From Escherichia coli (lineage in GTDB: Bacteria; Pseudomonadota; Gammaproteobacteria; Enterobacterales; Enterobacteriaceae), in assembly GCF_024700885.2 (NCBI RefSeq), contig NZ_CP117016.1: a DNA stretch of 64,000 bases, one strand, 5' to 3'. The translations under genes and the position numbers were made by a program. Positions 25,838 through 38,875 of this stretch are shown piece after piece. How positions within the stretch are numbered: position 1 is the first letter of the stretch; each line of letters opens with the position of its first letter. The notes under the pieces were generated by a model that was not told the origin of the DNA, made no database searches, and worked only from the letters and a program-made list of their open reading frames with translations.

Positions 25838-25913
25838 GCCGATATAGCTCAGTTGGTAGAGCAGCGCATTCGTAATGCGAAGGTCGTAGGTTCGACTCCT
25901 ATTATCGGCACCA
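25838..25913 (+). tRNA. thrW: tRNA-Thr (anticodon CGT)
   Basis: 76 nt GCCGATATAGCTCAGTTGGTAGAGCAGCGCATTCGTAATGCGAAGGTCGTAGGTTCGACTCCTATTATCGGCACCA: acceptor stem pairs, T-loop GGTTCGA, encoded CCA. Confidence 0.95.
25897..25913 (+). repeat. attL core (3' end of thrW)
   Basis: TCCTATTATCGGCACCA, repeated with one G missing at 38138-38153. Confidence 0.8.
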
Positions 25914-26077
25914 TCACCTAGTTTTCCCAAGTCAACCCACATCAACAAAATCATTTAAAAACATATATATTACGTTGTTTTCATACGTTTGAGGTCAACC
26001 CTTGTCTCTTGAAATCAACACGCGGTTGGGGGCACAATCAGGGGCATGTTCTGTTCGGTCTAGGAAATGTGCCCCCA

Positions 26078-27268
26078 ATGATGCTGAATGCCCGCAAGGT
26101 TGAAGCTGCGAAAGGAAAAGAGAAGAGCTACAAGCTGTTTGATGGAGGTGGCCTATATCTTCAGGTCGAACCTAATGGCTCGCGTTACTGGCGTATGAAA
26201 TACCGTTTTGCTGGTAAAGAGAAACGATTGTCCTTTGGTGTTTATCCAACAGTCACACTTGCTGATGCCAGACAAAAACGAGAAGACGCGAAGAAACTAC
26301 TCGCAGCAGGTGAAGATCCCGGCGAAGTCAAAAAAGCCAAAAAGCAGGCTTTAAATGCAGCGATTGAGACACTTAACCCATTCAGAGAAGTGGCGTTAGA
26401 GTGGCACAAAATGAAATCACCCAAATGGTCTGAGGGCTATGCTTCCGACATCATTGAGGCATTCGAGAAAGACATTTTCCCGCATATTGGGCACAGACCT
26501 ATAGCTGATATTCAGCCCCTTGAACTGCTTGAAGTTCTGAGATTGATAGAAGCTCGAGGCGCTATGGAGAAAGCGAAGAAAGTCCGTCAGCGATGCGGTG
26601 AAGTTTTTCGCTATGCCATCGTAACGGGTAGGGCAATCTACAATCCGGCACCGGATCTTGCCAGTGCGATGCAAGGACATGAAGCAGTCCACTATCCATT
26701 CCTCAAAGCCAACGAACTACCGGAGTTCTTTAATGCCCTTAATTCTTATTCAGGAAGTCCAATTGTATTGTTGGGGGCGCATTTACTTATCCTGACAGGT
26801 CTACGAACTGGAGAACTACGAGCAGGTGAGTGGCGAGAGGTGGATTTTGATAATGCGGTGTGGGAGATCCCAAAAGAACGTATGAAAATGCGTAGGAGCC
26901 ATATTGTCCCGTTGTCAAAACAAGCATTATCCCATCTCAAAAGTTTGAAAGAACTAACTGGGAACTACCCGCTGATGTTCCCTGGACGCAACGATCCTAG
27001 CAAATTTATGAGTGAAGCAAGCATTAATCAGGTGTTTAAACGTATTGGATATGCAGGGCGTGTTACGGGGCATGGTTTCAGGCATACGATGAGTACAATC
27101 CTACATGAGAAAGGATTTAACAGCGCTTGGATTGAAACCCAGCTTGCTCATTCGGACAAAAACTCTATTCGTGGAATTTATAACCATGCCCAATATCTCG
27201 AAGGGAGAAGAGAAATGATGCAATGGTATGCTAATTATTTATCTGAGCTAATTGGTACTCATAAATGA
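26078..27268 (+). CDS. int: Tyrosine recombinase, P4-type integrase
   Basis: ORF 26009-27268 (TTG); likely ATG 26078: MMLNARKVEAAKGKEKSYKLFDGGGLYLQVEPNGSRYWRMKYRFAGKEKRLSFGVYP (P4-int N-terminal arm domain); catalytic HGFRHT...H..R..Y region near the C-terminus. Confidence 0.9.
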   Translation: MMLNARKVEAAKGKEKSYKLFDGGGLYLQVEPNGSRYWRMKYRFAGKEKRLSFGVYPTVTLADARQKREDAKKLLAAGEDPGEVKKAKKQALNAAIETLNPFREVALEWHKMKSPKWSEGYASDIIEAFEKDIFPHIGHRPIADIQPLELLEVLRLIEARGAMEKAKKVRQRCGEVFRYAIVTGRAIYNPAPDLASAMQGHEAVHYPFLKANELPEFFNALNSYSGSPIVLLGAHLLILTGLRTGELRAGEWREVDFDNAVWEIPKERMKMRRSHIVPLSKQALSHLKSLKELTGNYPLMFPGRNDPSKFMSEASINQVFKRIGYAGRVTGHGFRHTMSTILHEKGFNSAWIETQLAHSDKNSIRGIYNHAQYLEGRREMMQWYANYLSELIGTHK

Positions 27269-28089: not shown

Positions 28090-28214
28090 ATATTAACAAT
28101 TATTGTGGCTAATGATTTTGGATTTTTTTCATTAGTCACATTTTTCTCATTTATAACCTATGTTTTAATTTTCCGTGTTGAAGCCAATAGACTTAGATAA
28201 ACGGAGAATGATGA

Positions 28215-28421
28215 ATGTTATCTAAACATGATAATACTACTTTGCAACGACCTTCAATGGATTCTCTGATCGATATGAAGTTTATTACTTCCGATTGTTT
28301 ATTAAGTGATAAATGGATTTATCGATTGATTTCTCTGAATCGCTTTCCAAAACCTATAAAAATAGGTCGGATGTCACGATGGCGCGCTGCTGATTATTAT
28401 AAGTGGCGAGATGGGTTTTAA
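28215..28421 (+). CDS. alpA: AlpA-family transcriptional regulator / excisionase-like protein
   Basis: 68 aa; SDKWIYRLISLNRFPKPIKIGRMSRWRAADYYKW matches the AlpA/Vis HTH pattern (..iyrli..g.FPkPikiG.rs.W...ev..W). Confidence 0.75.
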   Translation: MLSKHDNTTLQRPSMDSLIDMKFITSDCLLSDKWIYRLISLNRFPKPIKIGRMSRWRAADYYKWRDGF

Positions 28422-28537
28422 GAAAACTCAGGTCAACATTTTGAGGGAATGAGAAATAAGGCAAGAGCAATTAATAAAGGGAATAGATTATCACCTACTC
28501 CCTAAGCCTTAATTGATAGTTAGTAATATTTAACTGA

Positions 28538-28711
28538 TTAGCCTTTAGGGTCAATCCCGCGTGATTGGAGTTCTTTGCGTAAAATTCTTTTAATCCAAGT
28601 TGCCAACGCGCTATCTCCATCTTTGCGCATTTCGTTTTCGAGTTGCAACCTAAAATCGTCGGTAAGACGCATTTGGAATGGTGGAGAACGTTTCTCTTGT
28701 GGTGTTGACAT
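28538..28711 (-). CDS. Small ribbon-helix-helix (Arc/MetJ-like) DNA-binding protein, candidate satellite repressor
   Basis: 57-aa ORF below the ORF-track cutoff, translated by hand: MSTPQEKRSPPFQMRLTDDFRLQLENEMRKDGDSALATWIKRILRKELQSRGIDPKG; beta-strand FQMRL plus two helices; its start codon lies inside the operator repeat. Confidence 0.6.
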   Translation of the reverse strand: MSTPQEKRSPPFQMRLTDDFRLQLENEMRKDGDSALATWIKRILRKELQSRGIDPKG

Positions 28712-28751
28712 GGTAATTACCCTAGAATATGATGACTACATGGTAATTACC
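28705..28751 (+). promoter_or_regulatory. Early rightward promoter (TTGACA-17-TATGAT) bracketed by two ACATGGTAATTACC operator repeats
   Basis: TTGACA 28705-28710, TATGAT 28728-28733; 14-bp direct repeats at 28708-28721 and 28738-28751, each with the perfect palindrome GGTAATTACC. Confidence 0.65.
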
Positions 28752-28842
28752 ATTGTAAGTATAGTTCGCTTGTAAAAGCAATGCCCGATTGTGCGGGAAC
28801 ACAAATCGGGCATTTAACCAACCGTTATAAGAGGTAACGAAG

Positions 28843-29019
28843 ATGGCTAAACAGAAGTGTACTTGGTTATTTGCGGCGATCAACCGCAGTCAACGCAATG
28901 CCCGTCCTGTGATGTTAAGGATCACCGCAGATAACGAGCGGTCAGCGCGGCGCAGACTTGCCCCGGACTATGTACTGAGCTTTGCCGGGCGCATTCCCTG
29001 CGGAGGTGAACATGCGTAA
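28843..29019 (+). CDS. Icd-like host cell-division inhibitor family small protein
   Basis: 58-aa ORF translated by hand: MAKQKCTWLFAAINRSQRNARPVMLRITADNERSARRRLAPDYVLSFAGRIPCGGEHA; resembles remembered Icd-like proteins of P4-type elements (..ARP..L.v.A..E..ARR.La....LSFAaRlPv). Confidence 0.6.
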   Translation: MAKQKCTWLFAAINRSQRNARPVMLRITADNERSARRRLAPDYVLSFAGRIPCGGEHA

Positions 29020-29371
29020 TTATCCGCACCCCGGCGAACGCTGGCAGCATGAACGTGGCTGGACGGTCACGATTATCCGATTAATAGAAGCATCGCCCTC
29101 TGTGGCACTGGTTAATCCTGAATTCAGCTGTGAAGTGCTGATACGTCATGACAGCGACAACCAGCTTTCTTCCTGCCCTCTGGCATGGTTTGAACAGCGG
29201 TATACGCGCCTGTTTGATGTACCGCTCTTTAAGCCTGCACCAGCTCCTGCAGGCGGTAGTGGTTCCGGCCCGCTGACACTGCATCCGTCTGTGCTATTTA
29301 TCCGCTGGCGGGAGCGTAGCATATGGCGTTCTGCTGAGCCTGACGACGGTCACTATTCAAAGTTTCTCTGA
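29012..29371 (+). CDS. Hypothetical protein (satellite early operon)
   Basis: ORF 28982-29371; ATG 29012 overlaps the stop of the preceding gene (ATGCGTAA). Confidence 0.55.
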   Translation: MRNYPHPGERWQHERGWTVTIIRLIEASPSVALVNPEFSCEVLIRHDSDNQLSSCPLAWFEQRYTRLFDVPLFKPAPAPAGGSGSGPLTLHPSVLFIRWRERSIWRSAEPDDGHYSKFL

Positions 29372-29402
29372 CAAAATACCGCTGAAAACGGAGTAATCCA
29401 CG

Positions 29403-29687
29403 ATGAATATTTCAAACGGGCACAACGGTGCTCAGGGCCACACTTTGCCTGAAAAACACAATACCGGTGCTTTTGCCTATGGGTTGTCAGAGGACAGTTT
29501 CGGAAAGCTGACCCGCGCAAGAAATGCCTGCGACATGCTCCAGCTTCTCTTTTCTGAATACCCGTCTCAGGCCGGAGCACTGGACGCTGGCTGTGCGCAT
29601 GGTGTCGCCGCGCTGATGGAGTACCTGCTGGCAGATTTGACGGATATTGCACACAGCTGCGCACTGATTGAAGGAGGTGCCAGATGA
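29403..29687 (+). CDS. Hypothetical protein (satellite early operon)
   Basis: 94-aa ORF, same strand and GC style as neighbours; ATGA overlap with the next ORF. Confidence 0.55.
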   Translation: MNISNGHNGAQGHTLPEKHNTGAFAYGLSEDSFGKLTRARNACDMLQLLFSEYPSQAGALDAGCAHGVAALMEYLLADLTDIAHSCALIEGGAR

Positions 29688-30067
29688 ACCAGCCGCAGGT
29701 TTCCATTTTCCCGGCAGAAATGACCACCGCGCTTTACCGGCGGGCTATTGCTTCAGCATGGCGGCAGAAAATGCTGAACGAAACTGGCAGTGATCAGTAT
29801 GGTCCGCACAGCCTGACGGTGGAGCGTATTGAAATGGCCATTGCGCTGCATATCGAGTGCGTACTGATTAACGAGTACGGCGAAGTGCAGGGCGCCGCTG
29901 CCGCGCTGGCACTGCTGACTGACATGCTGGAGCCGTCACTGCTGACCGCGCCGCCGGTACTGACCGCGCGCGGCTGTGAAGTGATGGCGGAGATGTACCG
30001 CACGCTTCCGGCGGCCTTTGATGACTTCTGCAGTACCGGTGTGACGTTGTATGAGGGGGAAGTATGA
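29684..30067 (+). CDS. Hypothetical protein (satellite early operon)
   Basis: 127-aa ORF, ATGA-coupled on both sides. Confidence 0.55.
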   Translation: MNQPQVSIFPAEMTTALYRRAIASAWRQKMLNETGSDQYGPHSLTVERIEMAIALHIECVLINEYGEVQGAAAALALLTDMLEPSLLTAPPVLTARGCEVMAEMYRTLPAAFDDFCSTGVTLYEGEV

Positions 30068-32736
30068 CAATACAGACGGTTACGCAGATTTCAGCCGCCG
30101 CACGGGGGAAATGGCCCGTTATTCTGCAGATGCTGCGTATTGATGTACCTGAAAACGGCAGGCACGGTCCCTGCCCGAAATGTGGGGGCAAGGATCGTTT
30201 TCGCCTTGATGACCTTGACGGGCGCGGGACGTGGATCTGCAGCCAGTGTGGCAATGGTGACGGTCTGGATCTGGTTAAGCTCGTAACCGGTTACAGCGTC
30301 AGAAAGGCTGCGCAGGAGGTGGCGCAGGTGCTTAATGTGCCGAATATGCAGGAACTGCCTGTTAAGCCTGCCAGACAAAAAGCCCCTAAACGCGACATGG
30401 GTCTTACCGTGGCGGCGCTGATGAAAGAGAGCCACACGGGAGAAAGCGCCTATCTGACAGGAAAAGGGTTCGCCGGATACCCGGCCTCTCTGACCGGAAG
30501 CGTGCAGCATATCAGCGGTAAGGATTTCCCTGCCGGTTCCCTGCTGTTACCACTCACGACCAACACCGGAGCCGTGACCGGTGCACAGCTTATCGCCCCG
30601 ACGGGTGAAAAAAGCATACTGCCCGGCAGCACGATGAAAGGCGCGTTTGTGTCGCTCAGCCCGTTACCGTCTGAACCACCGGTACAGGTGGTGATTACCG
30701 AAGGTTACGCTACGGCGCTGACGGTAAGTCAGCTCACTGCCGGATGCGTAGTGGCTGCCATATCTGCGGGCAACCTGCCCAATGTGGCGCAGTCGCTGCG
30801 GGCACGCTGGCCTGAGGTAAAAATTATCATCGCCGGTGATAACGATTTTCAGGACGGAGATGAGAATCCCGGCAGAGCCTTTGCTGAACGGGCGGCAAAA
30901 GCTGTTGGCGGCTGGATGACGCTGCCACCAGGAGAGATTAAGGCTGACTGGAATGACTTTCATCGGGAGCACGGTATTACCCGTGCCCGTGAAGCCTTTC
31001 GCAACGGTCTGGTACTGTGCGGGGAAGGCCGCACGCAACTGCCGCACGGGTTCCGTCTTACCCAGGAATATCTCTGGTATGAAAAGCAGGTACAGCGCAA
31101 CGGTGAGACGGAGATCCAGAACGTCAAAATATGCAGCCCGCTGCGCGTGACGGCAATCACCTGCGATGCCGATGGCGGTAACTTCGGACGACTGCTGGAA
31201 TGGGAAGATACGTGGGGTGAGTGTCGCCGCTGGGCGATGCCGATGGAAATGCTGAGCGGCAGTGGTGAGGAACTGCGCCGGGTACTGCTGGTTAACGGGC
31301 TGTCTTATATCAGCACCACCGGTGAGGCACGCGCACGCCTGATGGAATATATCTCACTGTGTAAACCGGAACGCCGCGTGACCTGCGTCAGTCGTACTGG
31401 CTGGCATGGTCAGGTTTACGTCCTGCAGGATGAGGTCAGCGGTGAAGGTGCAGAGGGTGTCATTCTCCAGACCACTTCCGTGCAGGGGCGTGATTTCCGC
31501 GTGTCGGGCACAACAGAGGAATGGCGGGAGCATGTATCCCGCTACTGTACCGGCAACTCCCGCGTGGCATTTGCTGTCAGCCTGGCCTTTGCTGCACCAC
31601 TGTTACGGCTGGTTGGTATGGACGGCGGCGGCTACCACCTCAAAGGGGAATCGACAGACGGTAAGACCACCACCATGAAAGCGGCAACCTCCGTCTGCGG
31701 CGGGCCTGACTACTGGCAGACATGGCGGGCCACCGGCAACGCGCTGGAGGGATGCGCCAGCCGCCGCAACGATGCCGCCATGATGCTTGATGAGATCCGG
31801 GAAGTTGACGGACGCGAGGCAGGCAATATCGCCTACATGCTGGCAAACGGTCAGGGCAAGGGCCGTGCCGGTACGGACGGTGAGCTGCGTACCCGTAAGC
31901 AGTGGCGCCTGTTGTTCTTTTCAACTGGCGAGTTGTCTCTGACCGAACATGCGGCAAAGGCCGGTGAGCGTACTTTTGCCGGGATGGAAGTCAGGATGAT
32001 CCAGATCCCCAGCGATTCCGGGAAGTTTGGCGTTTTTGAGGAGCTGCACGGCTTCGACAGCGGCAAGGCTCTGGCAGAGCATCTTGAATGGGCCACGTCC
32101 TGCTACTACGGTTCGCCGTTCCGGGAGTGGCTGAAAGCACTGACCGCTGATCTTAACGGACTAACGGCACAGGCAAAATCGCTGATGAAGGAATATGCTG
32201 CCGCCCTGACTCCGAAAGATGCAGGCAATCAGGTGGGCCGGGCTGTGAACCGCTTTGCTCTGGTGGCGATGGCAGGTGAACTGGCAACCCGTCTGGGTAT
32301 CACCGGCTGGCCTGAGGGTGAAGCACTGCGGGCAACCCGCGTCTGCCTGAACGCATGGCTGAAAGATCGCGGGCACACCGCCAATCAGGAAGATATCGCC
32401 GCACTGGAGCAGGTTCGCAGTTTCTTTACCGCGAATCAGTACAGCCGCTTTGCAGACTGGTATGACGAGCGCAACCGCCCCGGCAATATGGTGGGCTGGC
32501 GCAGGGTGGAGAAAGGCAGTACCGCGCAGGGCACGGAAGCTGTCACTACGTTCTATGTCATGCCGTCCGGCTGGAAAGAAATCTGCAGGGGATTTGACCC
32601 GCGCAAGGTGGCGCGTCTGTGCGCAGATCGTGGATACCTGCTGCCCTCCACAGATGGCAAACTCCAGACAACCATTCGCCCGCCAGAGATGAATCCCCGC
32701 AGGCTCTATGTCTTCAACAGCGAGGTGCCTGGTTAA
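30064..32736 (+). CDS. P4 alpha-type bifunctional DNA primase / replicative helicase
   Basis: 890 aa; N-terminal Zn ribbon CPKCGGKDRFRLDD...CSQCG, Toprim-like acidic motif IIIAGDNDFQDGDENPG, helicase Walker A GESTDGKTT. Confidence 0.88.
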   Translation: MTIQTVTQISAAARGKWPVILQMLRIDVPENGRHGPCPKCGGKDRFRLDDLDGRGTWICSQCGNGDGLDLVKLVTGYSVRKAAQEVAQVLNVPNMQELPVKPARQKAPKRDMGLTVAALMKESHTGESAYLTGKGFAGYPASLTGSVQHISGKDFPAGSLLLPLTTNTGAVTGAQLIAPTGEKSILPGSTMKGAFVSLSPLPSEPPVQVVITEGYATALTVSQLTAGCVVAAISAGNLPNVAQSLRARWPEVKIIIAGDNDFQDGDENPGRAFAERAAKAVGGWMTLPPGEIKADWNDFHREHGITRAREAFRNGLVLCGEGRTQLPHGFRLTQEYLWYEKQVQRNGETEIQNVKICSPLRVTAITCDADGGNFGRLLEWEDTWGECRRWAMPMEMLSGSGEELRRVLLVNGLSYISTTGEARARLMEYISLCKPERRVTCVSRTGWHGQVYVLQDEVSGEGAEGVILQTTSVQGRDFRVSGTTEEWREHVSRYCTGNSRVAFAVSLAFAAPLLRLVGMDGGGYHLKGESTDGKTTTMKAATSVCGGPDYWQTWRATGNALEGCASRRNDAAMMLDEIREVDGREAGNIAYMLANGQGKGRAGTDGELRTRKQWRLLFFSTGELSLTEHAAKAGERTFAGMEVRMIQIPSDSGKFGVFEELHGFDSGKALAEHLEWATSCYYGSPFREWLKALTADLNGLTAQAKSLMKEYAAALTPKDAGNQVGRAVNRFALVAMAGELATRLGITGWPEGEALRATRVCLNAWLKDRGHTANQEDIAALEQVRSFFTANQYSRFADWYDERNRPGNMVGWRRVEKGSTAQGTEAVTTFYVMPSGWKEICRGFDPRKVARLCADRGYLLPSTDGKLQTTIRPPEMNPRRLYVFNSEVPG

Positions 32737-32770
32737 GGCTTTGCGTGAGTCTTATTTATTAAGGGTAACA

Positions 32771-32958
32771 GGTGAAACAGGTGGAACAACCGTATTTTAC
32801 AGGGCTGAACCTGTTCCACCTTCTGAAATAGTGAGGTGGAACAGATGTAACGCCAGCCAATCCGCTGTTCCACCTTGTTACCCGCGATGTTCCACCGGTG
32901 CAGTGTATATAAATGCCTTATAAAACAAAGCCGTAACACATGTTTCACCTGTTCCACC
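32771..32958. repeat. Origin-type iteron cluster: 8 copies of GGTGGAACA/TGTTCCACC around an AT-rich core
   Basis: Forward copies at 32771 (variant GGTGAAACA), 32780, 32835; reverse copies at 32812, 32866, 32888, 32941 (variant TGTTTCACC), 32950; AT-rich tatataaatgccttataaaacaaag at about 32905-32929. Confidence 0.75.
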
Positions 32959-33046
32959 GCATCAGGGACATAAAGCAGACTGAAACAGAGGGCATTTTTA
33001 TCTGGCTGGCTTTCATAGCCACGTCTGAATAACCGCAAGCGCCCGT

Positions 33047-33102
33047 TGTGCCAGCCACCACACACTGAACACCGATAGTGTGCTTGTGTCAGCCACGACA
33101 CA
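33047..33102 (+). promoter_or_regulatory. Ogr/Delta-dependent late promoter (two TGT-N12-ACA sites) upstream of sid
   Basis: TGTGCCAGCCACCACACA (33047-33064) and TGTGTCAGCCACGACACA (33085-33102), centres 38 bp apart; sid ATG at 33137 preceded by AGGAG. Confidence 0.65.
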
Positions 33103-33136
33103 ATTGACGTAACGAACCAACCCGACAGGAGAAGTC

Positions 33137-33880
33137 ATGAACAATACCGCAGTAAATAACAACCTTTCCACTTTTCCGGCTGTAACGCAGCGGGCACTGG
33201 AAACCATGAACACAGCCAGAAACGCATGGCTTGAAGCACGTCGTCAGCAGAAAGCGGCAGCGGATAATATTGCGACAATCCGCCAGCGTCGCGCTGAAAT
33301 GGAAGCCACGACGAACACACTGAATGAGGAGTGGCGCACGCTGTTTCGTGAAAGTCAGGGCGTGATCTCAAAGGAAATGAAAAAACTGCGCACGGAAATT
33401 GCGCTGGGACGAGAAACGCTTGAGGATTTTGATGAGCTGCTGGCGGCTCAGGAAAGCGAAAATGCACTTTTGCCGCAGAAAGCTGCAGAATTAGCCGGAA
33501 AGTATATCCACGCGCATAACATTCTTGTGGATATTCGCGCAAAACAAATCTGGGAGGATTTTATGCAGTCGCATGGAAAAGTGCTTATTCAGACGCTGAG
33601 CCTGCTTAAATCCACAATGGGCCGGGAAGCCAGTGCCGTTGTGGGTGTGGTGAATTCAGTTAATGACCCGGACACAGTGCTGAAAGACTTTATTCATAAA
33701 TATATCACCAGACCGGCTCTGGCTAACGATGCGATGCCTGAGCAGGACCCGGTGTTTAAACTGGCGGGAGTTGCCCCGGATTATGCGGCGCGTCTGGATT
33801 TCAGTAATCAACTCTCTCCGGCAGCTATGCATAAAATTAAGGTTCGTCAGGAACTTGCTGAGAAGGAGAAAGCAGTATGA
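33137..33880 (+). CDS. sid: Sid-like capsid size-determination (external scaffold) protein
   Basis: 247 aa; segment EEWRTLFRESQGVISKEMKKLRTEIALGRETLEDFDEL parallels remembered P4 Sid (DDWRTAFRAAGGVLSDELKQRHIE...); size and position fit. Confidence 0.7.
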   Translation: MNNTAVNNNLSTFPAVTQRALETMNTARNAWLEARRQQKAAADNIATIRQRRAEMEATTNTLNEEWRTLFRESQGVISKEMKKLRTEIALGRETLEDFDELLAAQESENALLPQKAAELAGKYIHAHNILVDIRAKQIWEDFMQSHGKVLIQTLSLLKSTMGREASAVVGVVNSVNDPDTVLKDFIHKYITRPALANDAMPEQDPVFKLAGVAPDYAARLDFSNQLSPAAMHKIKVRQELAEKEKAV

Positions 33881-34428
33881 CGGCCCGAGGCACGCCTGAC
33901 CAGGCACTTACCAGTTTTCGGAATGCCCGTATTCTGTGGGCCGGACATAATGAGAGCCGAAAAGCCGTTGAACAACAGATAACATCTCTCCTCGCTGCCA
34001 CAGAAAAACCAGCAGATTATGCCCGACAGCTCGAATTACTGCGGGAACGTCTGGATGTGCTGAAATGGCAAATTAACTGTGCTGCGCGCGAATGCATTTA
34101 CTCGCAGCATTTACTGATGGAGGCCTGCACAGAAGCCGCTCTCAGCAATTTTATGCAGGCGAATGGGGCAGCCCTGACATCTGCACTGGCTCCGTTCCTG
34201 AAGGGGCGCGGAGGGGTTGACGTTGCGTCCCGTATATTACGCAGTGCTCTGGTTCGCCAGCTGGCAATAACACCGCCTGAATTTGCCGGGGATTATCGTG
34301 AGATCCTGGATGAATCCGGTTTGATGCTTGACCCCGGGATGATTCGTGATTGCCAGGGTTCTTACACCCCGGCACAACATCTGCGTTTTCAGCAACGCCT
34401 GAATGACATTAACGATATACAGGAGTGA
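33877..34428 (+). CDS. psu: Psu-like polarity-suppression / capsid decoration protein
   Basis: 183 aa; FMQANGAALTSALAPFLKG parallels remembered P4 Psu FMQQHGTALAAALAPELMG; ATGA-coupled to sid. Confidence 0.7.
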   Translation: MTARGTPDQALTSFRNARILWAGHNESRKAVEQQITSLLAATEKPADYARQLELLRERLDVLKWQINCAARECIYSQHLLMEACTEAALSNFMQANGAALTSALAPFLKGRGGVDVASRILRSALVRQLAITPPEFAGDYREILDESGLMLDPGMIRDCQGSYTPAQHLRFQQRLNDINDIQE

Positions 34429-34433
34429 TATTA

Positions 34434-34706
34434 ATGGCACTTAAATGTCCGGAATGCGGTACAGTTGCACACGCCAGAACAGCAGCCTATGAAGCTCCGT
34501 CAGTTAAACGCTCGTGGTATCAGTGCCAGAATCTGGAATGTTCCTGCACATTTACGGCACTGGAGAGTGTGGATAAGATAATCATGAAACCCCGGCGCAA
34601 TGAACAGGAACCAGACAAATCACAAACCCCGGTAAAACAACAGCAAACGCTCAATCGCTATGGCTCCGCGTCAAAACTGTCAAGCCGTCAGCAGATTCCT
34701 GTCTGA
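34434..34706 (+). CDS. Ogr/Delta-family zinc-finger late transcription activator
   Basis: MALKCPECGTVAHARTAAYEAPSVKRSWYQCQNLECSCTFTALESV: CxxC-N22-CxxxxC Ogr/Delta finger; AGGAG RBS at 34421-34425. Confidence 0.85.
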   Translation: MALKCPECGTVAHARTAAYEAPSVKRSWYQCQNLECSCTFTALESVDKIIMKPRRNEQEPDKSQTPVKQQQTLNRYGSASKLSSRQQIPV

Positions 34707-34727
34707 TTAGAAAAAAAATGCCCACGT

Positions 34728-34754
34728 AATCCCGGTCGAGTACTGGGATTTTTA
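34728..34754 (+). terminator. Rho-independent terminator of the sid-psu-delta late operon
   Basis: aatcccgg tcgagta ctgggatt + ttt (8-bp stem with one G-U, T-run). Confidence 0.65.
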
Positions 34755-34916
34755 ACACCTTACCCCTGGCTGGCCTGAGAGCGCATGAGTGCATGTCTAT
34801 GGCGCATGAAAACGCATGAGTCTCATGCACCATTTTTGACGCGAAAGCCCTTGTGTGGTGGCTTCTGAGACGATTAATGAGGTGCATGAAAACCAGTCTG
34901 TTAAGTGAAGCGGGAA

Positions 34917-34935
34917 GGCGTGCGGGGCTGCGCAC
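34917..34935. other. Candidate P2/P4-type cos (cohesive end) sequence
   Basis: GGCGTGCGGGGCTGCGCAC matches the remembered 19-nt P2/P4 cohesive end GGCGAGGCGGGGAAAGCAC at 12 of 19 positions (both ends conserved); location after psu/delta, as in P4. Confidence 0.35.
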
Positions 34936-35260
34936 GTAGCAGGGTTAAATGGTCAATTCTGGCGCAGCTCACGACATTAAGTCAGCCTCAATAGATGTAC
35001 GTGTTGGTAGGGGTAATTCGCTACTTTTTTGTATCCTAAATTGTATGGTTTGATGCTGATCGTTTCTTCACCGCACCTGCAGAGATATCAATTCAATGTG
35101 GACAAAAATGAGTCTGGCTCTTTCCGTATCACTAGAATTGCCAGTATTGTTAGGGATGATGCCCATATCATACGGAGGGAGCCAGTGGGGGCGATTGCGC
35201 GTGGAAAGTGCTTTGGATTTATTCATCGGTTTTATGATTCTACATAAGGAGCAAAGGTAC

Positions 35261-35289
35261 TTGTATCGTATGAAAAAAAATAGTATAGA
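35261..35289 (+). promoter_or_regulatory. Candidate retron promoter (TTGTAT-17-TATAGA)
   Basis: -35 at 35261-35266, -10 at 35284-35289; places the transcription start at the first base of the a1 repeat (~35295). Confidence 0.45.
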
Positions 35290-35294
35290 TATAA

Positions 35295-35457
35295 TGCTCC
35301 TTACGCGTTATGGCATAGTTATATGCTAGTCGGGCGATTAGCCAGACTCGAACTTATTGAACGGTATTAGGGTTGCGCTTGGTGTGCCTCTGGATTGCAC
35401 TCCATGCTGTCGCGCAATCCAGAGGCACACCAAGCGCTTCCTTTAGGTAAGTGAGTA
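35295..35457 (+). ncRNA. Retron msr-msd non-coding RNA (predicted)
   Basis: a1 TGCTCCTTAC (35295-35304) pairs with a2 GTAAGTGAGTA (35447-35457); G35305 directly 3' of a1 in CTTAC-G-CG context; two short msr hairpins (35311-35328, 35329-35347); 24-bp perfect msd hairpin 35375-35398/35414-35437; immediately upstream of effector and RT genes. Confidence 0.7.
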
Positions 35458-35529
35458 AAAACAGCACCTTCTTCGATTTATGATGAAGGTGCTGCAATCG
35501 TAACGTTTTTTGTATACACGGATAGTATA

Positions 35530-36498
35530 GTGGCTGAGACATACGAAGATAAAGTTGCTAATCATGTTTCAGAGTGGGAAATGGAAAATTTCCGTGTATG
35601 TTATGATGATCAGGTTATTTTCTTATGTGGTGCGGAAGTACTTCCTCAAGGAAGTGTTCAGACTTCAATGAGAGGGCATTTTTATCACTATTGCCTGAAT
35701 AAAAATAAAGATATAGCTGATAAAATAATTCTTGCCGAAAACTTCAAAAAATATCTTCAAAATAATCATTATCCAGACTTAATAACTTTTGAGCATGATG
35801 TTGCAAGTATATCTAGTTTAGTTGTTATTTTCTTGGAAAGCAGTGGTTCAATTGCTGAGTTAGGTGTTTTCTGTAATATTAGTGATGTCAATAAAAAATT
35901 ATTGATATTTGTTCCATCAGATGAAGTTGAAGGTGACAAGAAAGAGTCTTTCATTTACTTAGGGCCTTTATTGTTTTTAAAAGAAAAGGTCAATGAAAAA
36001 GCATTTAAGATTTATCCAAAACCCACTAATGGTTCTGATTACTCCGAGCATTTAGAGATTATGGCTGATGACTTGGCTGAACTATTACCTAGAAGTGGTA
36101 AGTTTGAAAGCTTCGATCCTGACAATTTAGGGCATATAGCTTTTCTTATATGCAGAATTGTGCATTTAGTAATGCCTATTAAGCTAAAGGAAATATTAAA
36201 TTGTTTAAAAATAATAGGTATCAATAAATATACTCTGACTGAGGTTGAAAGAATTTTGTTTTTATTGGAAACATTGGGTTTTATAAATATTTATCCGTAT
36301 GGCGATTTAAAATACTATTATTCAATGCAAGCCAGGCAAAATCTTAAATTAGGGAAAAATAAAACCGGATTCACAATCGATGAGGCTGGTATTTTTACTG
36401 ATATTAGTGTTTTTATCAATGACAATAAATTATGTAGTGATAAAAAAAGACGGCTGGTTTTGAAAGGCATTAAGGAGAAGCATAATGGACATAATTAA
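35530..36498 (+). CDS. Retron effector: nucleoside deoxyribosyltransferase-like N-domain plus C-terminal winged-helix-like domain (St85/Ec73-type layout)
   Basis: 322-aa ORF (GTG start; ATG at 35581 is an alternative); Rossmann-like VIFLCGAE and FLESSGSIAELGVF (candidate catalytic Glu) typical of NDT-like retron effectors; overlaps the RT start by 14 nt. Confidence 0.7.
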   Translation: MAETYEDKVANHVSEWEMENFRVCYDDQVIFLCGAEVLPQGSVQTSMRGHFYHYCLNKNKDIADKIILAENFKKYLQNNHYPDLITFEHDVASISSLVVIFLESSGSIAELGVFCNISDVNKKLLIFVPSDEVEGDKKESFIYLGPLLFLKEKVNEKAFKIYPKPTNGSDYSEHLEIMADDLAELLPRSGKFESFDPDNLGHIAFLICRIVHLVMPIKLKEILNCLKIIGINKYTLTEVERILFLLETLGFINIYPYGDLKYYYSMQARQNLKLGKNKTGFTIDEAGIFTDISVFINDNKLCSDKKRRLVLKGIKEKHNGHN

Positions 36499-37417
36499 AA
36501 AAATCGCAGATGAAACTCTAATGCCGGTATCAAAAGTATCTGCTTTTATATTTACAGCCCCATATAGATATAAAGTATATCCCATCCCCAAAAGGAATGG
36601 TGGGTTTAGGGAGATTGCTCAACCGTCAAGGGCATTAAAGTTTATGCAAAGGATTGTTATTGCTGAACTAGAGAAAGTACTTAAGGTTCATGAAAACGCA
36701 TATGCTTATGTCAAAGGACGTAGTATAAAAGATAATGTGGAAAAGCATCAAAGAAACTCTTATATTTTGAAAGTTGATTTCTGCGACTTTTTTAATAGCA
36801 TAAACCCTTACGACCTTGAGTTATGTTTAAAAAACAATGGGTTAGACTCATTGTTAAGCTCACAAGAATTATTGAATAAACTTTTTTTCTATAAGAAAAG
36901 TAAAAGAGGTGCTTTATCAATGAGCATCGGGGCACCTAGTTCTCCATTTTTGTCAAATGCGATTATGTATAAGTTTGATTCAGTCATTAGTGATATGTGT
37001 TCAAATAAAAATATTACTTATACAAGATATGCTGATGATCTTACATTTTCTACTAATGAAAAAGGTATTTTGTATGAATTCATACATGAAATAGATAAAG
37101 TTCTTGAGGAGATAGATAGTCCTAAATTAAAACTAAATGATAAGAAAACCATATTTGCATCTAAAAAATGCAATCGTCATATAACAGGAATTGTTATTAA
37201 TAACGAAGAAAAACTTTCAATTGGTAGAGATAAAAAACGTTACTTAAGTAGTTTAATTCATAAATTCTCGCTTAATGCACTTAATGAGGAAGGAGTTGAA
37301 CATTTAAAAGGGTATTTGGCGTATGTAAATAAAATTGAACCTTCATTCATTAGCAGAATGAAAAGGAAATATGGAGTCGAAGTTGTCAACTCCATAATCA
37401 CATTTAATCCATTATAA
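36485..37417 (+). CDS. ret: Retron-type reverse transcriptase
   Basis: 310 aa; RT motifs FREIAQPS, NAYAYVKGRSIKDN, KVDFCDFFNSI, IGAPSSPFLSN, catalytic YTRYADDLTFS and retron-typical ITGIVIN (VTG) motif; no maturase, endonuclease or other extra domains. Confidence 0.9.
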   Translation: MDIIKKIADETLMPVSKVSAFIFTAPYRYKVYPIPKRNGGFREIAQPSRALKFMQRIVIAELEKVLKVHENAYAYVKGRSIKDNVEKHQRNSYILKVDFCDFFNSINPYDLELCLKNNGLDSLLSSQELLNKLFFYKKSKRGALSMSIGAPSSPFLSNAIMYKFDSVISDMCSNKNITYTRYADDLTFSTNEKGILYEFIHEIDKVLEEIDSPKLKLNDKKTIFASKKCNRHITGIVINNEEKLSIGRDKKRYLSSLIHKFSLNALNEEGVEHLKGYLAYVNKIEPSFISRMKRKYGVEVVNSIITFNPL

Positions 37418-37894
37418 ATGTGAACTTATTATATTTATAATGGTTGTGCTTTTTTCTTGTACCTTAGGGGTGTAAAAGAATGTCATCATGAAGATAATTA
37501 AAAAATGAATGGCAATAAGAGTAATAGGTAACATTTTTTCAATATCACTTAAATGGCGATGCCTTTTTTGTGTAATAACTTCCTCTTCTCTTTTGAAAGG
37601 AGTTATACCTATCTTGACCTCCATCTCCTGAATTACTGTAAACTTAGCAGCATTAATTCTTTTATAGGAAGTAATTAGATTTATCCAATAGATATTAATT
37701 ACGACTCCAGCGAGAGAGATTAAGATTACCCAAATAGGCTGTATTGTTGGCTTTAAAGAAAAATATCCAACAAGCGGTAAAATAGAAGAGTTTAAGGCTA
37801 ATAAAAATGTATTTGACTTAAGTCTTCGATCACTTATTCTATCCGCCATCTCAACGCATGTTTTATATATTTCTATGACTTTATCATCCGTCAC
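37412..37894 (-). CDS. Small predicted 3-TM membrane protein of unknown function (candidate defence/abortive-infection effector)
   Basis: 160 aa; amphipathic N-terminal helix IEIYKTCVEMADRISDRRLKSNTF, then hydrophobic segments FLLALNSSILPLVGYFSL, IWVILISLAGVVINIYWINLI, MLPITLIAIHFLIIFMMTFFY; AT-rich; stop overlaps the RT stop. Confidence 0.65.
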   Translation of the reverse strand: MTDDKVIEIYKTCVEMADRISDRRLKSNTFLLALNSSILPLVGYFSLKPTIQPIWVILISLAGVVINIYWINLITSYKRINAAKFTVIQEMEVKIGITPFKREEEVITQKRHRHLSDIEKMLPITLIAIHFLIIFMMTFFYTPKVQEKSTTIINIISSHL

Positions 37895-38137
37895 TAATAG
37901 TATCCTTATAAATTTCTGAGTTGTTCAAATAAATGTTATCATATATTTTTATCAACGTAATATGTATTTTTACGTATTTTTAACTGTGAGAGATACATAG
38001 TGATTGTTGGGTGCATGTACAATCCTTGATACTTAACAATGAAAGCGTAGTTGTGGGGGGGGGGCATATTTGGGGGCATTACTATTTAATCTTTCTTGAT
38101 TTTTATTATAAAACAACTGGTTGTATTGATGTTTTGT

Positions 38138-38153
38138 TCCTATTATCGCACCA
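38138..38153 (+). repeat. attR core (pseudo-thrW 3' end)
   Basis: TCCTATTATCGCACCA = attL 25897-25913 minus one G; next base T also shared. Confidence 0.75.
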
Positions 38154-38280
38154 TTTAAATCAAGTAGTTACCTCACATTCAATTACACCACATTTTCCTC
38201 CTGTGCCGTATTTGTGCCATTGTAACCCTGGCAATTCATCAAAATACTGTTCTGACATCAGGCAGTGCAGGTGCAGACAT

Positions 38281-38514
38281 TTAAGCCAATTGCTGCCGCC
38301 ATTCCTTGACGTGGTCAATCAGGGCGCGGAGCTTTGGTGCAATATTGCGACGCTGTGGGAAATACAGATAGAAGCCCGGAAATTGTGGAAGAAAGTCATC
38401 AAGCAGCGATACAAGCTTACCGCTTTCAATATATGGCCTGAAAGTTTCCTGAGTGGCAATTGTTATGCCTGCGCCGGCAAGAGCCAGCCTCAACATCAGA
38501 CGCAGATCATTCTG
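38281..38514 (-). pseudogene. LysR-family regulator, C-terminal ~77 codons only
   Basis: QNDLRLMLRLALAGAGITIATQETFRPYIESGKLVSLLDDFLPQFPGFYLYFPQRRNIAPKLRALIDHVKEW: LysR effector-domain C-terminus; in-frame stop immediately upstream, no HTH part. Confidence 0.7.
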
Positions 38515-38594: not shown

Positions 38595-38875
38595 ATGAAC
38601 AGGAAGAATACATCCCTAAGCGGTTAATGCTGGCGTAATCAATAGACCAGCATTAATCACAGATGATTACCAATCAGACAGAAATGGTTAAATCGTCGAA
38701 TTCATATTTAATACGTTTTCTTACGCCGCTGAGCAACTTGAAAGCAGGAAAAGGATGTATATTTTAAATATCAGTGAAGTGAACAGTTTATTGCCGTTAT
38801 TAATAGAGATGGAGGAATAAATAGGCGTATTCTACTATTGCAACAAAAACAACGATAATGATCAGTTTTCATAAT
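38595..38875. repeat. Collapsed, diverged second copy of the ykgO-3'/terminator and ykgR segments
   Basis: 38595-38735 aligns by eye with 57206-57345, and 38745-38875 with 58035-58165; the ykgR-like frame here has an in-frame TGA where the N-terminus should be. Confidence 0.7.

What the first reader, a model, noticed from the sequence alone, without database searches (positions are those of the whole stretch)
35261..37417. Apparently complete retron (ncRNA - NDT-like effector - RT) in the cargo slot of a P4-like satellite
Seen in sequence: a 310-aa ORF carries the RT catalytic YADD box (YTRYADDLTFS), the retron-typical ITGIV (VTG) motif and no accessory domains. A 322-aa ORF overlaps its start by 14 nt and has an NDT-like signature (VIFLCGAE ... 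SSGSIAELGVF) plus a helical C-terminal half. Upstream lies a structured ~160-nt region with the expected retron geometry. The block is visibly much more AT-rich than the satellite core (not computed). Established knowledge: the order ncRNA-effector-RT with an NDT-like/DNA-binding effector is the layout of the St85(Sen2)/Ec73-type retrons. Retron Ec73 was itself found on a P4-like retronphage (phiR73). The psu-to-int interval of P4-like satellites is a described hotspot for anti-phage cargo (Rousset et al. 2022). Inference: this is a functional anti-phage retron mobilised by the satellite. I cannot tell from memory whether this ncRNA/RT/effector allele has already been described.
Basis: partly seen in the sequence, partly recalled or inferred. 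Interest (0 to 1): 0.85.

Follow-up and report, generated by a model that had tools for sequence, protein, structure and literature searches.

The report
St85-type retron on a P4-like satellite
This is a complete, already auto-annotated anti-phage retron of the Sen2/St85 type, carried as cargo by a small P4-like phage satellite in E. coli; the only unexpected feature is a membrane-protein gene that always travels with it and that elsewhere partners TIR immune enzymes.

Summary
Window 35295-37417 holds a complete type II-A1 (Sen2/St85-family) retron:
- an msr-msd ncRNA (Rfam msr above its gathering score, closing a2/a1 stem, 24-bp msd hairpin, covariation);
- a 322-aa NDT-like plus winged-helix effector (PADLOC 2e-79; predicted fold matches the Retron-Eco1 effector; catalytic Glu is E110);
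- a 310-aa retron RT (PADLOC 7e-123).

It is the terminal, AT-rich cargo of a 12.3-kb P4-like satellite inserted at tRNA-Thr. RefSeq annotates the identical locus as "retron St85 family" in 23 of 5426 complete E. coli genomes. Retrons in this satellite hotspot were described by Rousset et al. 2022. This allele is not Retron-Eco9, and I found no experimental study of it. It is a new member of a known kind.

One addition. A convergent 160-aa "8xMP/RipA" membrane-protein gene (37412-37894) overlaps the RT stop codon. It is present in all eight lineages of this retron subclade, including one outside any satellite, and in 0 of 79 more distant effector-RT loci. Elsewhere, 82% of 8xMP genes sit beside ThsB-type TIR genes, and 8xMP probably equals the untested "3TM" Thoeris effector. 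A functional link between the retron's NAD-type glycosidase and this membrane protein is plausible but unproven.

The parts
35261..35289 (+). Putative promoter of the ncRNA: TTGTAT (35261-35266), a 17-nt spacer, then TATAGA (35284-35289). This would start transcription at about 35295-35297, the first bases of a2.
   Evidence: Read directly from the sequence. A TATAGA/TATAAA-type hexamer sits at the same distance upstream of a2 in homologous loci. The consensus promoter scan did not call it. This is an inference only.
35295..35457 (+). Retron ncRNA (msr-msd), 163 nt. It contains: a2 at 35295-35304; the predicted branching G at 35305; msr hairpins at 35311-35328 and 35329-35347; the msd stem-loop at 35369-35443 (perfect 24-bp core at 35375-35398 / 35414-35437); and a1 at 35447-35457. 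The predicted msDNA is roughly 80-90 nt.
   Evidence: Rfam msr scores 53.4 bits against a gathering score of 52, and STnc400 scores 53 bits. Inverted repeat. MFE -83.4 kcal/mol, z = -7.6. The same architecture is closed by an a2/a1 stem in all 5 lineages. There is a compensatory change in the msd stem, and a2/a1 covaries. The branching G and the msDNA length are inferred by analogy and were not measured.
35462..35494 (+). Terminator-like hairpin between the ncRNA and the effector gene (13-bp arms).
   Evidence: Inverted repeat I2. A hairpin is conserved at this position with many two-sided compensatory changes across lineages (columns 189-217). It is followed by a T-run in L003, L007 and L010. 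Its function is inferred.
35530..36498 (+). Retron effector, 322 aa. The N-terminal part is an NDT-like N-glycosidase domain with catalytic Glu E110 in GSIAELG. The C-terminal part is a winged-helix domain. It is RcaT/STM3845-type.
   Evidence: PADLOC NDT_II-A 2.3e-79. NCBIfam NF038232 at 224 bits. phmmer matches the Ec86 effector 7v9x_C at 1e-6, and E110 aligns with the Glu that is replaced by Ala in entry 8qbl, titled E106A. E110 is invariant in 20 homologs. The AF2 model has pLDDT 88.4, and Foldseek hits 8qbl_E, 8qbk_E and 7xjg_J at probability 1.0.
36485..37417 (+). Retron reverse transcriptase, 310 aa (YADD at 182-185, ITG at 233-235, NVEKH at 84-88). Its start overlaps the effector stop by 14 nt.
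   Evidence: PADLOC RT_II-A 6.6e-123 and RT_I-A 3.3e-117. NCBIfam retron_St85_RT 347 bits. The nearest solved structures are the Ec78 and Ec83 retron RTs at about 1e-77.
37412..37894 (-). Convergent 160-aa 8xMP / 'RipA family octameric membrane protein' gene. Its stop overlaps the RT stop by 6 nt. It is a conserved companion of this retron subclade, and its function is unknown.
   Evidence: Pfam PF24838 1.5e-28. Same position and orientation in all 8 lineages sampled. 39-48% identical across lineages. The AF2 model is all-helical with pLDDT 83.5 and has no PDB match. Hydrophobic segments lie at about 48-76 and 117-145, with a weaker one at about 29-47. There is no PADLOC model for it.
37370..37396 (-). 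Terminator-like hairpin plus T-run on the minus strand, just downstream of the 8xMP stop and inside the 3' end of the RT coding sequence.
   Evidence: Consensus terminator scan. Its function is not tested.
25838..25913 (+). tRNA-Thr (CGU). Its 3' end (25897-25914, TCCTATTATCGGCACCAT) is attL of the satellite.
   Evidence: ARAGORN, sequence, PGAP annotation of the identical locus.
26009..27268 (+). Tyrosine integrase of the satellite, 43% identical to P4 Int.
   Evidence: tblastn with P4 Int, 5.6e-103. NCBIfam integrase domain 1e-87.
30064..32736 (+). Replication protein, the counterpart of P4 alpha. It has a Zn-ribbon primase domain, a Toprim domain and DUF927.
   Evidence: Pfam. Its N-terminal 311 aa are 39% identical to P4 alpha.
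33137..34706 (+). Late genes of the P4-like satellite: sid-like (33137-33880), psu (33877-34428) and delta (34425-34706).
   Evidence: PHROG 6165 at 1e-91. Pfam Psu 5.4e-43 and Ogr_Delta 7.2e-16. P4 Psu 29% and Delta 45% identity.
38138..38154 (+). attR: TCCTATTATCG-CACCAT, a 17-of-18 copy of the tRNA-Thr 3' end. The element spans about 25897-38154, 12.3 kb.
   Evidence: Read from the sequence. The repeat finder missed it because of the 1-nt deletion. Truncated host genes follow it.

Best explanation
Window 35295-37417 is a complete type II-A1 retron of the Sen2/St85 family. It is the terminal cargo of a 12.3-kb P4-like satellite integrated at tRNA-Thr(CGU) in E. coli.

Shown here: the three retron parts are present, intact and in the canonical order ncRNA - NDT-like/winged-helix effector - RT. 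The ncRNA fold is conserved and covaries.

Inferred by homology to Sen2, Eco9 and Eco1: the RT copies the msd part of the ncRNA into an msDNA of about 80-90 nt, branched from G35305. The RT-msDNA complex binds and silences the effector, acting as the antitoxin. Phage infection perturbs the msDNA or the complex and frees the effector. The effector's N-glycosidase activity (catalytic E110, probably on NAD+ or nucleotides) then arrests the cell before the phage completes its cycle. This is abortive infection that also protects the satellite's host.

The block moves as a three-gene module with a convergent 8xMP membrane-protein gene, which may be an added partner (see the novel case).
For: RT: PADLOC RT_II-A 6.6e-123; NCBIfam retron_St85_RT 347 bits against a cutoff of 235; PDB neighbours are the Ec78/Ec83/Ec86 retron RTs.

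Effector: PADLOC NDT_II-A 2.3e-79; NF038232 at 224 bits; fold match to the Retron-Eco1 effector at probability 1.0, then MilB N-glycosidase and wHTH proteins; invariant E110 aligned to Eco1 E106.

ncRNA: Rfam msr above its gathering score; 24-bp msd stem; a2/a1 closing stem in 5 lineages with compensatory changes.

Classification: II-A1 means ncRNA-NDT-RT with RT clade 1 shared with type I-A. This explains the near-equal RT_I-A score and the Ec78-like PDB hits.

Intactness and spread: 100% identical in 22 of 23 complete E. coli genomes; the exact proteins are seen on at least 1000 contigs.

Mechanism by homology: Sen2 and Eco9 are tripartite toxin-antitoxin systems in which RT plus msDNA neutralise RcaT. 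Eco9 defends against T7. Eco1's Ndt is described as NAD-depleting and as activated when the msDNA is disturbed; the PDB entry titles point the same way.

Satellite. Hotspot precedent.
Against: No experiment exists on this allele. msDNA production, toxicity, and defence range and trigger are all unmeasured. The Rfam msr score clears the gathering threshold by only 1.4 bits. The a2/a1 stem is short (10 bp with a bulge). No sigma-70 promoter was called by the scan. No P4/P2-type cos sequence was found in the satellite, so its mobilisation by a helper phage is not shown. [quoted passage not shown]
Confidence: 0.9

Rival explanations
1. The unit is really a four-part system. The convergent 8xMP membrane protein is a functional partner of the retron, for example a second, membrane-acting effector switched on by a product of the NDT-like glycosidase. 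This would resemble Thoeris, where a TIR-made NAD derivative activates a membrane effector.
For: 8xMP abuts or overlaps the RT stop in all 8 lineages of the subclade, including a Providencia locus that is not in a P4-like satellite. It has co-diverged with the retron proteins: 39-48% identity against 54-67%. It is absent from 79 of 79 more distant effector-RT loci. The high-scoring 8xMP subfamily was retron-linked in every locus I examined. Elsewhere, 61 of 74 evaluable 8xMP genes sit beside a same-strand ThsB-type TIR gene. TIRs listed with the untested '3TM' Thoeris effector are 45-66% identical to those neighbouring TIRs. Both TIR and NDT-like domains cleave N-glycosidic bonds of NAD+/nucleotides. 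K11, W70, K84, E92, E103, E119 and P123 are invariant across both 8xMP subfamilies.
Against: The gene is convergent and not co-transcribed with the retron, whereas TIR-linked 8xMP genes are operonic. Sen2 and Eco9 RcaT are toxic on their own in E. coli K-12, so the glycosidase does not need a membrane partner in general. No signal molecule, interaction or phenotype is known. Tight linkage could also arise from co-transfer alone.
Confidence: 0.4
2. 8xMP is an independent piece of cargo, such as a stand-alone defence or exclusion gene, or an orphaned Thoeris effector. It became physically welded to this retron lineage and is inherited with it without interacting.
For: It has the opposite orientation and its own terminator-like hairpin. 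Satellite hotspots commonly stack unrelated systems. The other type-II retron in Rousset's P4 hotspot table is listed with only two proteins.
Against: A Thoeris-type effector without a signal producer would be inert. Co-inheritance holds down to about 40% identity, across several genera and at least two kinds of mobile element, without a single loss in 13 sampled loci. That argues for selection on the combination.
Confidence: 0.5
3. The retron is an inert remnant, or the RT belongs to another RT class (group II intron, DGR, Abi/DRT).
For: None beyond the lack of experiments.
Against: Both ORFs are full length against their family profiles, and the catalytic residues are intact. The sequence is identical across 22 genomes. 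Group II intron and Drt models score far below their cutoffs: 67 bits against 300, and 24-46 bits against 200-550.
Confidence: 0.03

Closest known systems
Retron-Sen2 (St85) of Salmonella Typhimurium and Retron-Eco9 of E. coli NILS-16 (type II-A1; RcaT toxin with RT-msDNA antitoxin)
   Same: Same order msr-msd, effector, RT. Both proteins pass the NCBIfam St85-family models. The msr matches the Rfam model, and the msd region matches the Salmonella STnc400 model in its first 11 nt, with compensatory changes further along the stem. The expected mechanism is the same: a tripartite toxin-antitoxin system.
   Different: It is a different allele. STnc400 scores only 53 bits against a gathering score of 80. 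The Eco9 RcaT serines 155, 181, 254 and 292 are N, D, I and I here, so this is not Eco9. I had no Sen2 or Eco9 sequences and could not measure percent identity. I could not check whether Sen2 or Eco9 have an 8xMP neighbour.
Retron-Eco3 (Ec73) on retronphage phiR73, and the type-II retron listed in the P4-like hotspot table of Rousset et al. 2022
   Same: A type II-A1 retron carried as cargo by a P4-like satellite next to the psu/delta/cos end.
   Different: The RT of the retron in Rousset's table is only 44% identical, and that system is listed with two proteins and no third gene. This satellite sits at tRNA-Thr. Its order is sid-psu-delta, and its primase carries DUF927 rather than a D5-type helicase domain.
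Retron-Eco1 (Ec86; type II-A3), with solved structures 7v9x, 7xjg and 8qbk-8qbm
   Same: The effector has the same two-domain fold, and the catalytic Glu aligns.
   Different: The effector is only about 15-18% identical, and the RT is more distant (1e-34, against 1e-77 for the Ec78-type RTs). It belongs to a different RT clade (9 rather than 1) according to Mestre et al..
Retron-Eco7 (Ec78) and Ec83 (type I-A)
   Same: These are the closest solved RTs (about 1e-77, full-length alignment). They share the ncRNA-RT module.
   Different: Their effectors are a Septu-type ATPase plus an HNH nuclease, not an NDT-like protein.
Thoeris-like TIR + '3TM' two-gene operons (putative, untested type in bioRxiv 10.64898/2025.12.03.692087)
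   Same: The 8xMP gene beside this retron belongs to the same Pfam family (PF24838) as the membrane protein found beside ThsB-type TIR genes.
   Different: There is no TIR gene here. The neighbouring enzyme is an NDT-like retron effector, and the gene is convergent rather than operonic.

Membership tests
Retron (any type) | RT of the retron clade with YADD and retron-type motifs, and no group II intron or DGR signature | tested here: met
   PADLOC RT_II-A 6.6e-123. NCBIfam retron_St85_RT 347 bits against a cutoff of 235. Group II model 67 bits against 300. YADD, ITG and NVEKH are present.
Retron (any type) | Adjacent ncRNA with msr hairpins, a long msd stem-loop, flanking a2/a1 inverted repeats, and a G after a2 | tested here: met
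   Rfam msr 53.4 bits against a gathering score of 52. Fold and repeats. The architecture is conserved and covaries in 5 lineages.
Retron (any type) | Production of branched msDNA | not testable with these tools
   This needs msDNA extraction and gel analysis or sequencing.
Type II-A1 retron (Mestre et al. 2020) | Effector with an N-terminal NDT-like domain and a C-terminal DNA-binding (winged-helix) domain | tested here: met
   PADLOC NDT_II-A 2.3e-79. NF038232 at 224 bits. AF2 model plus Foldseek: Eco1 effector, MilB, wHTH proteins.
Type II-A1 retron (Mestre et al. 2020) | RT in clade 1, with the ncRNA-RT module shared with type I-A | tested here: inconclusive
   The evidence is consistent: the RT_II-A and RT_I-A models score almost equally, and the Ec78/Ec83 RTs are the nearest solved structures. 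No phylogeny against the Mestre dataset was run.
Type II-A1 retron (Mestre et al. 2020) | Gene order ncRNA - effector - RT on one strand | tested here: met
   Coordinates 35295-35457, 35530-36498 and 36485-37417, all on the + strand.
Retron-Eco9 (identity with the characterised E. coli allele) | RcaT carries Ser155, Ser181, Ser254 and Ser292 | tested here: not met
   Residues 155, 181, 254 and 292 here are N, D, I and I.
P4-like satellite | Core genes psu, delta, sid, an alpha-type primase and an integrase, in an element of about 10-15 kb at a tRNA gene | tested here: met
   Pfam Psu and Ogr_Delta. PHROG Sid/Psu-like. Toprim primase 39% identical to the N-terminus of P4 alpha. Int 43% identical. 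tRNA-Thr attL and attR lie 12.3 kb apart.
P4-like satellite | P2/P4-type cos site next to the cargo | tested here: not met
   There is no match to GGCGAGGCGGGGAAAGCAC with up to 3 mismatches, and no similarity to the P4 cos region. A cos-like string GGCGTGCGGGGCTGCGCAC at 34917-34935 is only my reading of the sequence.
Thoeris-type system | A TIR-domain (ThsB) gene adjacent to the effector gene | tested here: not met
   The ORFs called within the cargo block, 34700-38150, are only the effector, the RT and 8xMP, and none has a TIR match. The retron locus is therefore not a Thoeris system, although 8xMP relatives elsewhere do sit beside TIR genes.

The most novel reading that the evidence does not exclude
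This enterobacterial subclade of type II-A1 retrons is a retron-Thoeris hybrid. When the RT-msDNA complex releases it, the NDT-like glycosidase does more than deplete a metabolite. It also makes an NAD+/nucleotide-derived product that opens the co-inherited 8xMP ('3TM') membrane protein, which is the same protein family that ThsB-type TIR enzymes appear to use as an effector. That would give a defined downstream target for RcaT-type effectors, whose toxicity mechanism is still described as unclear. It would also show that NDT-like and TIR enzymes can be swapped in front of one membrane effector.
Probability: 0.25. Interest if true: 0.75.

Novelty: new member of a known kind. Interest (0 to 1): 0.35.

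Why it matters
As a retron on a P4-like satellite it adds little. The class, the layout, the hotspot and even the annotation already exist.

It may matter for two reasons. First, it is a naturally widespread E. coli allele (at least 1000 contigs, and also found in Salmonella, Enterobacter and Morganella) that appears untested. It has an unusually conserved msd stem, which could be useful for retron engineering or for trigger studies. Second, the invariable 8xMP companion gene gives a concrete, cheap experiment on two open questions: what RcaT-type NDT effectors actually do, and what the TIR-associated '3TM' membrane proteins respond to.

Tried and rejected
- P4/P2 cos search (19-mer with up to 3 mismatches, then blastn-short against the P4 cos region): nothing found. 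blastn of 34700-35295 against phage records gave only short 70-75% matches.
- DNA search of the retron against phage records: only a 52-nt msr-region match, to a Vibrio element. phiR73 was not found in that collection.
- Literature searches for the RefSeq accessions, '8xMP', 'octameric membrane protein' and 'RipA' with phage, Francisella or retron: no relevant paper. The 'RipA' hits were RIPA lysis buffer.
- Supplement of the retron census paper: neither the protein N-terminus nor the accession was found. Rousset's supplement: these three proteins were not found in the held (truncated) text.
- Identity with Retron-Eco9: rejected on four serine positions.
- 8xMP: no hit in PDB by sequence or by fold. 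No PADLOC, PHROG or NCBIfam model matches it. The afdb50 fold library was unavailable.
- The direct-repeat finder missed attR because of a 1-nt deletion. I found it by reading the sequence.
- The consensus promoter scan found nothing upstream of the ncRNA.
Full report
**1. The observation**

ORF listing confirms a 322-aa ORF at 35530-36498 and a 310-aa ORF at 36485-37417, both on the + strand and overlapping by 14 nt. They carry the quoted motifs VIFLCGAE, SSGSIAELGVF, YTRYADDLTFS and RHITGIVIN. GC content falls to 0.27-0.34 across 35500-38000, against 0.50-0.61 in the neighbouring satellite genes.

Upstream, Rfam's msr model matches 35296-35365 at 53.4 bits, just above its gathering score of 52. 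The Salmonella sRNA model STnc400 matches the next 119 nt at 53 bits, below its gathering score of 80. That region holds a perfect 24-bp inverted repeat at 35375-35398 / 35414-35437. The whole region folds far better than shuffled controls: z = -7.6, with 0 of 200 shuffles folding as well. The fold is closed by a 10-bp a2/a1 stem at 35295-35304 / 35447-35457.

**2. What the parts are**

*RT.* The RT scores 6.6e-123 against PADLOC RT_II-A and 3.3e-117 against RT_I-A. It scores 347 bits against NCBIfam retron_St85_RT, whose cutoff is 235. Group II intron and Drt models fall far below their cutoffs. Among solved structures it is closest to the Ec78 and Ec83 retron RTs (about 1e-77). Ec86 is more distant at 1e-34.

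*Effector.* The 322-aa protein scores 2.3e-79 against PADLOC NDT_II-A and 224 bits against NCBIfam STM3845_fam, whose cutoff is 100. By phmmer it aligns to the Ec86 effector. E110, in GSIAELG, falls on the glutamate that is replaced by alanine in PDB entry 8qbl, which is titled E106A. E110 is invariant in 20 homologs. An AlphaFold model built on that alignment has pLDDT 88.4 and pTM 0.87. Its top full-length Foldseek hits are the Retron-Eco1 effector (probability 1.0). Next come MilB/BcmB CMP N-glycosidases for the N-terminal half and winged-helix DNA binders for the C-terminal part.

**3. Classification**

Mestre et al. define type II-A1 as ncRNA - NDT/DNA-binding effector - RT, with Sen2 (St85), Vc81 and Ec73 as members. 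They note that II-A1 and I-A share one ncRNA-RT module (RT clade 1) but carry different effectors. That explains the near-equal I-A score and the Ec78-like PDB neighbours. I did not run a phylogeny, so clade placement rests on these proxies.

**4. ncRNA support from relatives**

The region upstream of the effector gene is homologous in four other lineages: L010, L003 (Klebsiella), L007 (Atlantibacter) and L013 (Providencia). The msd stem is almost invariant in sequence, although the proteins are only about 55% identical. One T-A to C-G compensatory change occurs in L010. The loop varies in length. Each lineage's minimum-energy fold is closed by its own covarying a2/a1 stem.

A hairpin between the ncRNA and the effector gene (35462-35494) is conserved in structure and carries many two-sided changes.

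The branching G (35305) and an msDNA length of about 80-90 nt are inferences by analogy.

**5. Context**

The identical 2.25-kb stretch occurs once in each of 23 of 5426 complete E. coli genomes, always on the chromosome. PGAP annotates it as 'retron St85 family effector protein', 'retron St85 family RNA-directed DNA polymerase' and 'RipA family octameric membrane protein'.

The element runs from the 3' end of tRNA-Thr(CGU) (25897-25914) to a 17-of-18 repeat at 38138-38154, a span of 12.3 kb. It encodes:
- an integrase, 43% identical to P4 Int;
- an Icd-like protein;
- a DUF5375 protein;
- a Zn-ribbon/Toprim/DUF927 primase, 39% identical to the N-terminus of P4 alpha;
- a Sid/Psu-like protein;
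- Psu;
- an Ogr/Delta protein.

It is thus a divergent P4-like satellite, and the retron is its last cargo before attR. I found no P4-type cos.

Rousset et al. 2022 state that retrons occupy this hotspot next to cos, and they cite phiR73. Their table lists a type-II retron there. Its RT is 44% identical to this one.

**6. Is this allele known?**

The exact proteins are in UniProt as A3RLX5 and A3RLX4. They occur on at least 1000 contigs and have close copies in Salmonella, Enterobacter and Morganella. I found no paper naming the accessions. They are not in the held supplement of the retron census.

The locus is not Retron-Eco9, the characterised Sen2-like E. coli retron. Eco9 RcaT has serines at 155, 181, 254 and 292, and this protein has N, D, I and I at those positions.

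The next RT relatives are 89% identical and then about 59% or less. The next effector relatives are 68% identical or less.

**7. Mechanism**

By homology, the RT plus msDNA neutralise the effector, and perturbing the msDNA frees it. This is shown for Sen2 and Eco9. Eco9 defends against T7. Eco1's Ndt is described as NAD-depleting and as triggered when the msDNA-ncRNA hybrid is disturbed. The PDB entry titles ('ADP-ribosylated effector', 'E106A inactive') are consistent with that. None of this has been measured for the present allele. The toxicity mechanism of RcaT-type effectors is still called unclear.

**8. The unexpected part: the 8xMP gene**

The convergent 160-aa gene at 37412-37894 matches Pfam 8xMP (PF24838) at 1.5e-28. 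Its stop codon overlaps the RT stop codon by 6 nt.

*Linkage to this retron subclade.* The same gene, in the same position and orientation, abutting or overlapping the RT stop, is present in every lineage of the subclade that I sampled:
- Klebsiella and Atlantibacter P4-like satellites at tRNA-Sec;
- three metagenomic or short contigs;
- a Providencia locus beside an IS91-type transposase and DUF932/antirestriction genes, that is, not a P4-like satellite;
- Mangrovibacter.

Identity to the window proteins is 55-67% for the effector, 54-58% for the RT and 39-48% for 8xMP. The three genes have therefore diverged together. By contrast, none of 79 more distant effector-RT loci (23-38% effector identity) has an 8xMP hit within 4 kb.

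*Where the family occurs otherwise.* In a family search, about 27 clusters score 190 bits or more, and the rest score 108 bits or less. Five of the four distant members' loci were looked up (L096-L100). Three of the four proteins lie close to TIR-domain genes: ThsB-type TIR genes directly adjacent in L096 and L099/L100, and a TIR-STAND gene two genes upstream in L098.

I then took 80 metagenomic 8xMP loci plus four of those earlier ones. Of the 74 with enough flanking sequence:
- 61 have an adjacent ThsB-type TIR gene;
- 5 are retron-linked;
- 8 have neither.

One of the 8 'neither' loci is L096. It has a ThsB_TIR gene upstream by the precomputed annotation, but the held DNA of that locus did not translate cleanly.

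The recurring neighbour matches Pfam PF08937 at up to 2e-18 and the PADLOC ThsB models.

*Link to Thoeris.* A December 2025 preprint on TIR signalling systems predicts 29 Thoeris types. Its Table S1 includes an untested '3TM' effector class. The TIR sequences listed for that class are 45-66% identical to the TIRs beside 8xMP in my loci. 8xMP is therefore very probably that '3TM' protein.

*Structure.* The 8xMP model is all-helical (pLDDT 83.5) and has no match among solved structures.

**9. Reading of the 8xMP result**

Both TIR domains and the retron's NDT-like domain cleave N-glycosidic bonds of NAD+ or nucleotides. The same membrane-protein family is attached to one or the other. This suggests that in this retron subclade the glycosidase feeds, or cooperates with, a membrane effector.

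Three points argue against that:
- the gene is convergent rather than operonic;
- it has its own terminator-like hairpin;
- RcaT alone is toxic in the Sen2 and Eco9 systems.

I rate a functional link at about 0.4 and the specific signalling model at about 0.25. The safest statement is that effector, RT and 8xMP form a conserved three-gene mobile module.

**10. Verdict**

The finding is correct and well observed, but it describes a known kind of system in a known kind of place, and standard pipelines already annotate it. It is a new, uncharacterised member of type II-A1 retrons. The conserved 8xMP companion is the only feature that lifts interest above routine.

Noticed in passing
window 27265-28089 (+): A second AT-rich gene (GC about 0.34, 274 aa) lies directly after the integrase, with its start overlapping the integrase stop. 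It has no hit in Pfam, NCBIfam, PHROGs or PADLOC. It may be a second cargo slot of the satellite.
   Followed up: partly
window 35369-35443, and L003, L007, L010, L013 (msd stems): The msd stem sequence is almost identical across lineages whose retron proteins are only about 55% identical, while the loop varies. This suggests selection on the stem sequence itself (recognition by a protein or by a trigger), not only on pairing.
   Followed up: partly
L003-L009 (Klebsiella and Atlantibacter loci): These relatives are canonical P4-like satellites at tRNA-Sec. They have the C4 antisense RNA and isrK RNA elements (Rfam), and the retron-8xMP block sits exactly between psu and int.
   Followed up: partly
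L099 and L100 (metagenomic contigs): A small mobilisable element (Mob_Pre relaxase, VapE-like protein, DnaG-type primase) carries an 8xMP gene followed by two ThsB-type TIR genes with overlapping starts. It looks like a compact, probably untested Thoeris-like operon.
   Followed up: partly
window 38281-38496 (-) and about 38600-38670: Immediately beyond attR lie truncated host genes: a LysR C-terminal fragment, and ykgR by PGAP annotation of the identical locus. This indicates a deletion or rearrangement at the right junction of the insertion site.
   Followed up: no
window 34917-34935: The string GGCGTGCGGGGCTGCGCAC resembles the P2/P4 cohesive-end sequence GGCGAGGCGGGGAAAGCAC but needs an indel to align. 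It sits between delta and the retron, where cos would be expected. It is unverified.
   Followed up: partly
L014 5839-6648 (Maridesulfovibrio-type locus): In a distant effector-RT locus, a co-directional 269-aa protein with no Pfam hit overlaps the RT stop. It may be a different accessory gene in another II-A subclade.
   Followed up: no
PQ189325.1 (Vibrio phage 10N.261.55.B9_PE001, 11.5 kb): This small Vibrio phage-like element carries an St85-family RT (47% identical) and a 52-nt stretch 86% identical to this msr. It is another satellite-sized element with a related retron.
   Followed up: no
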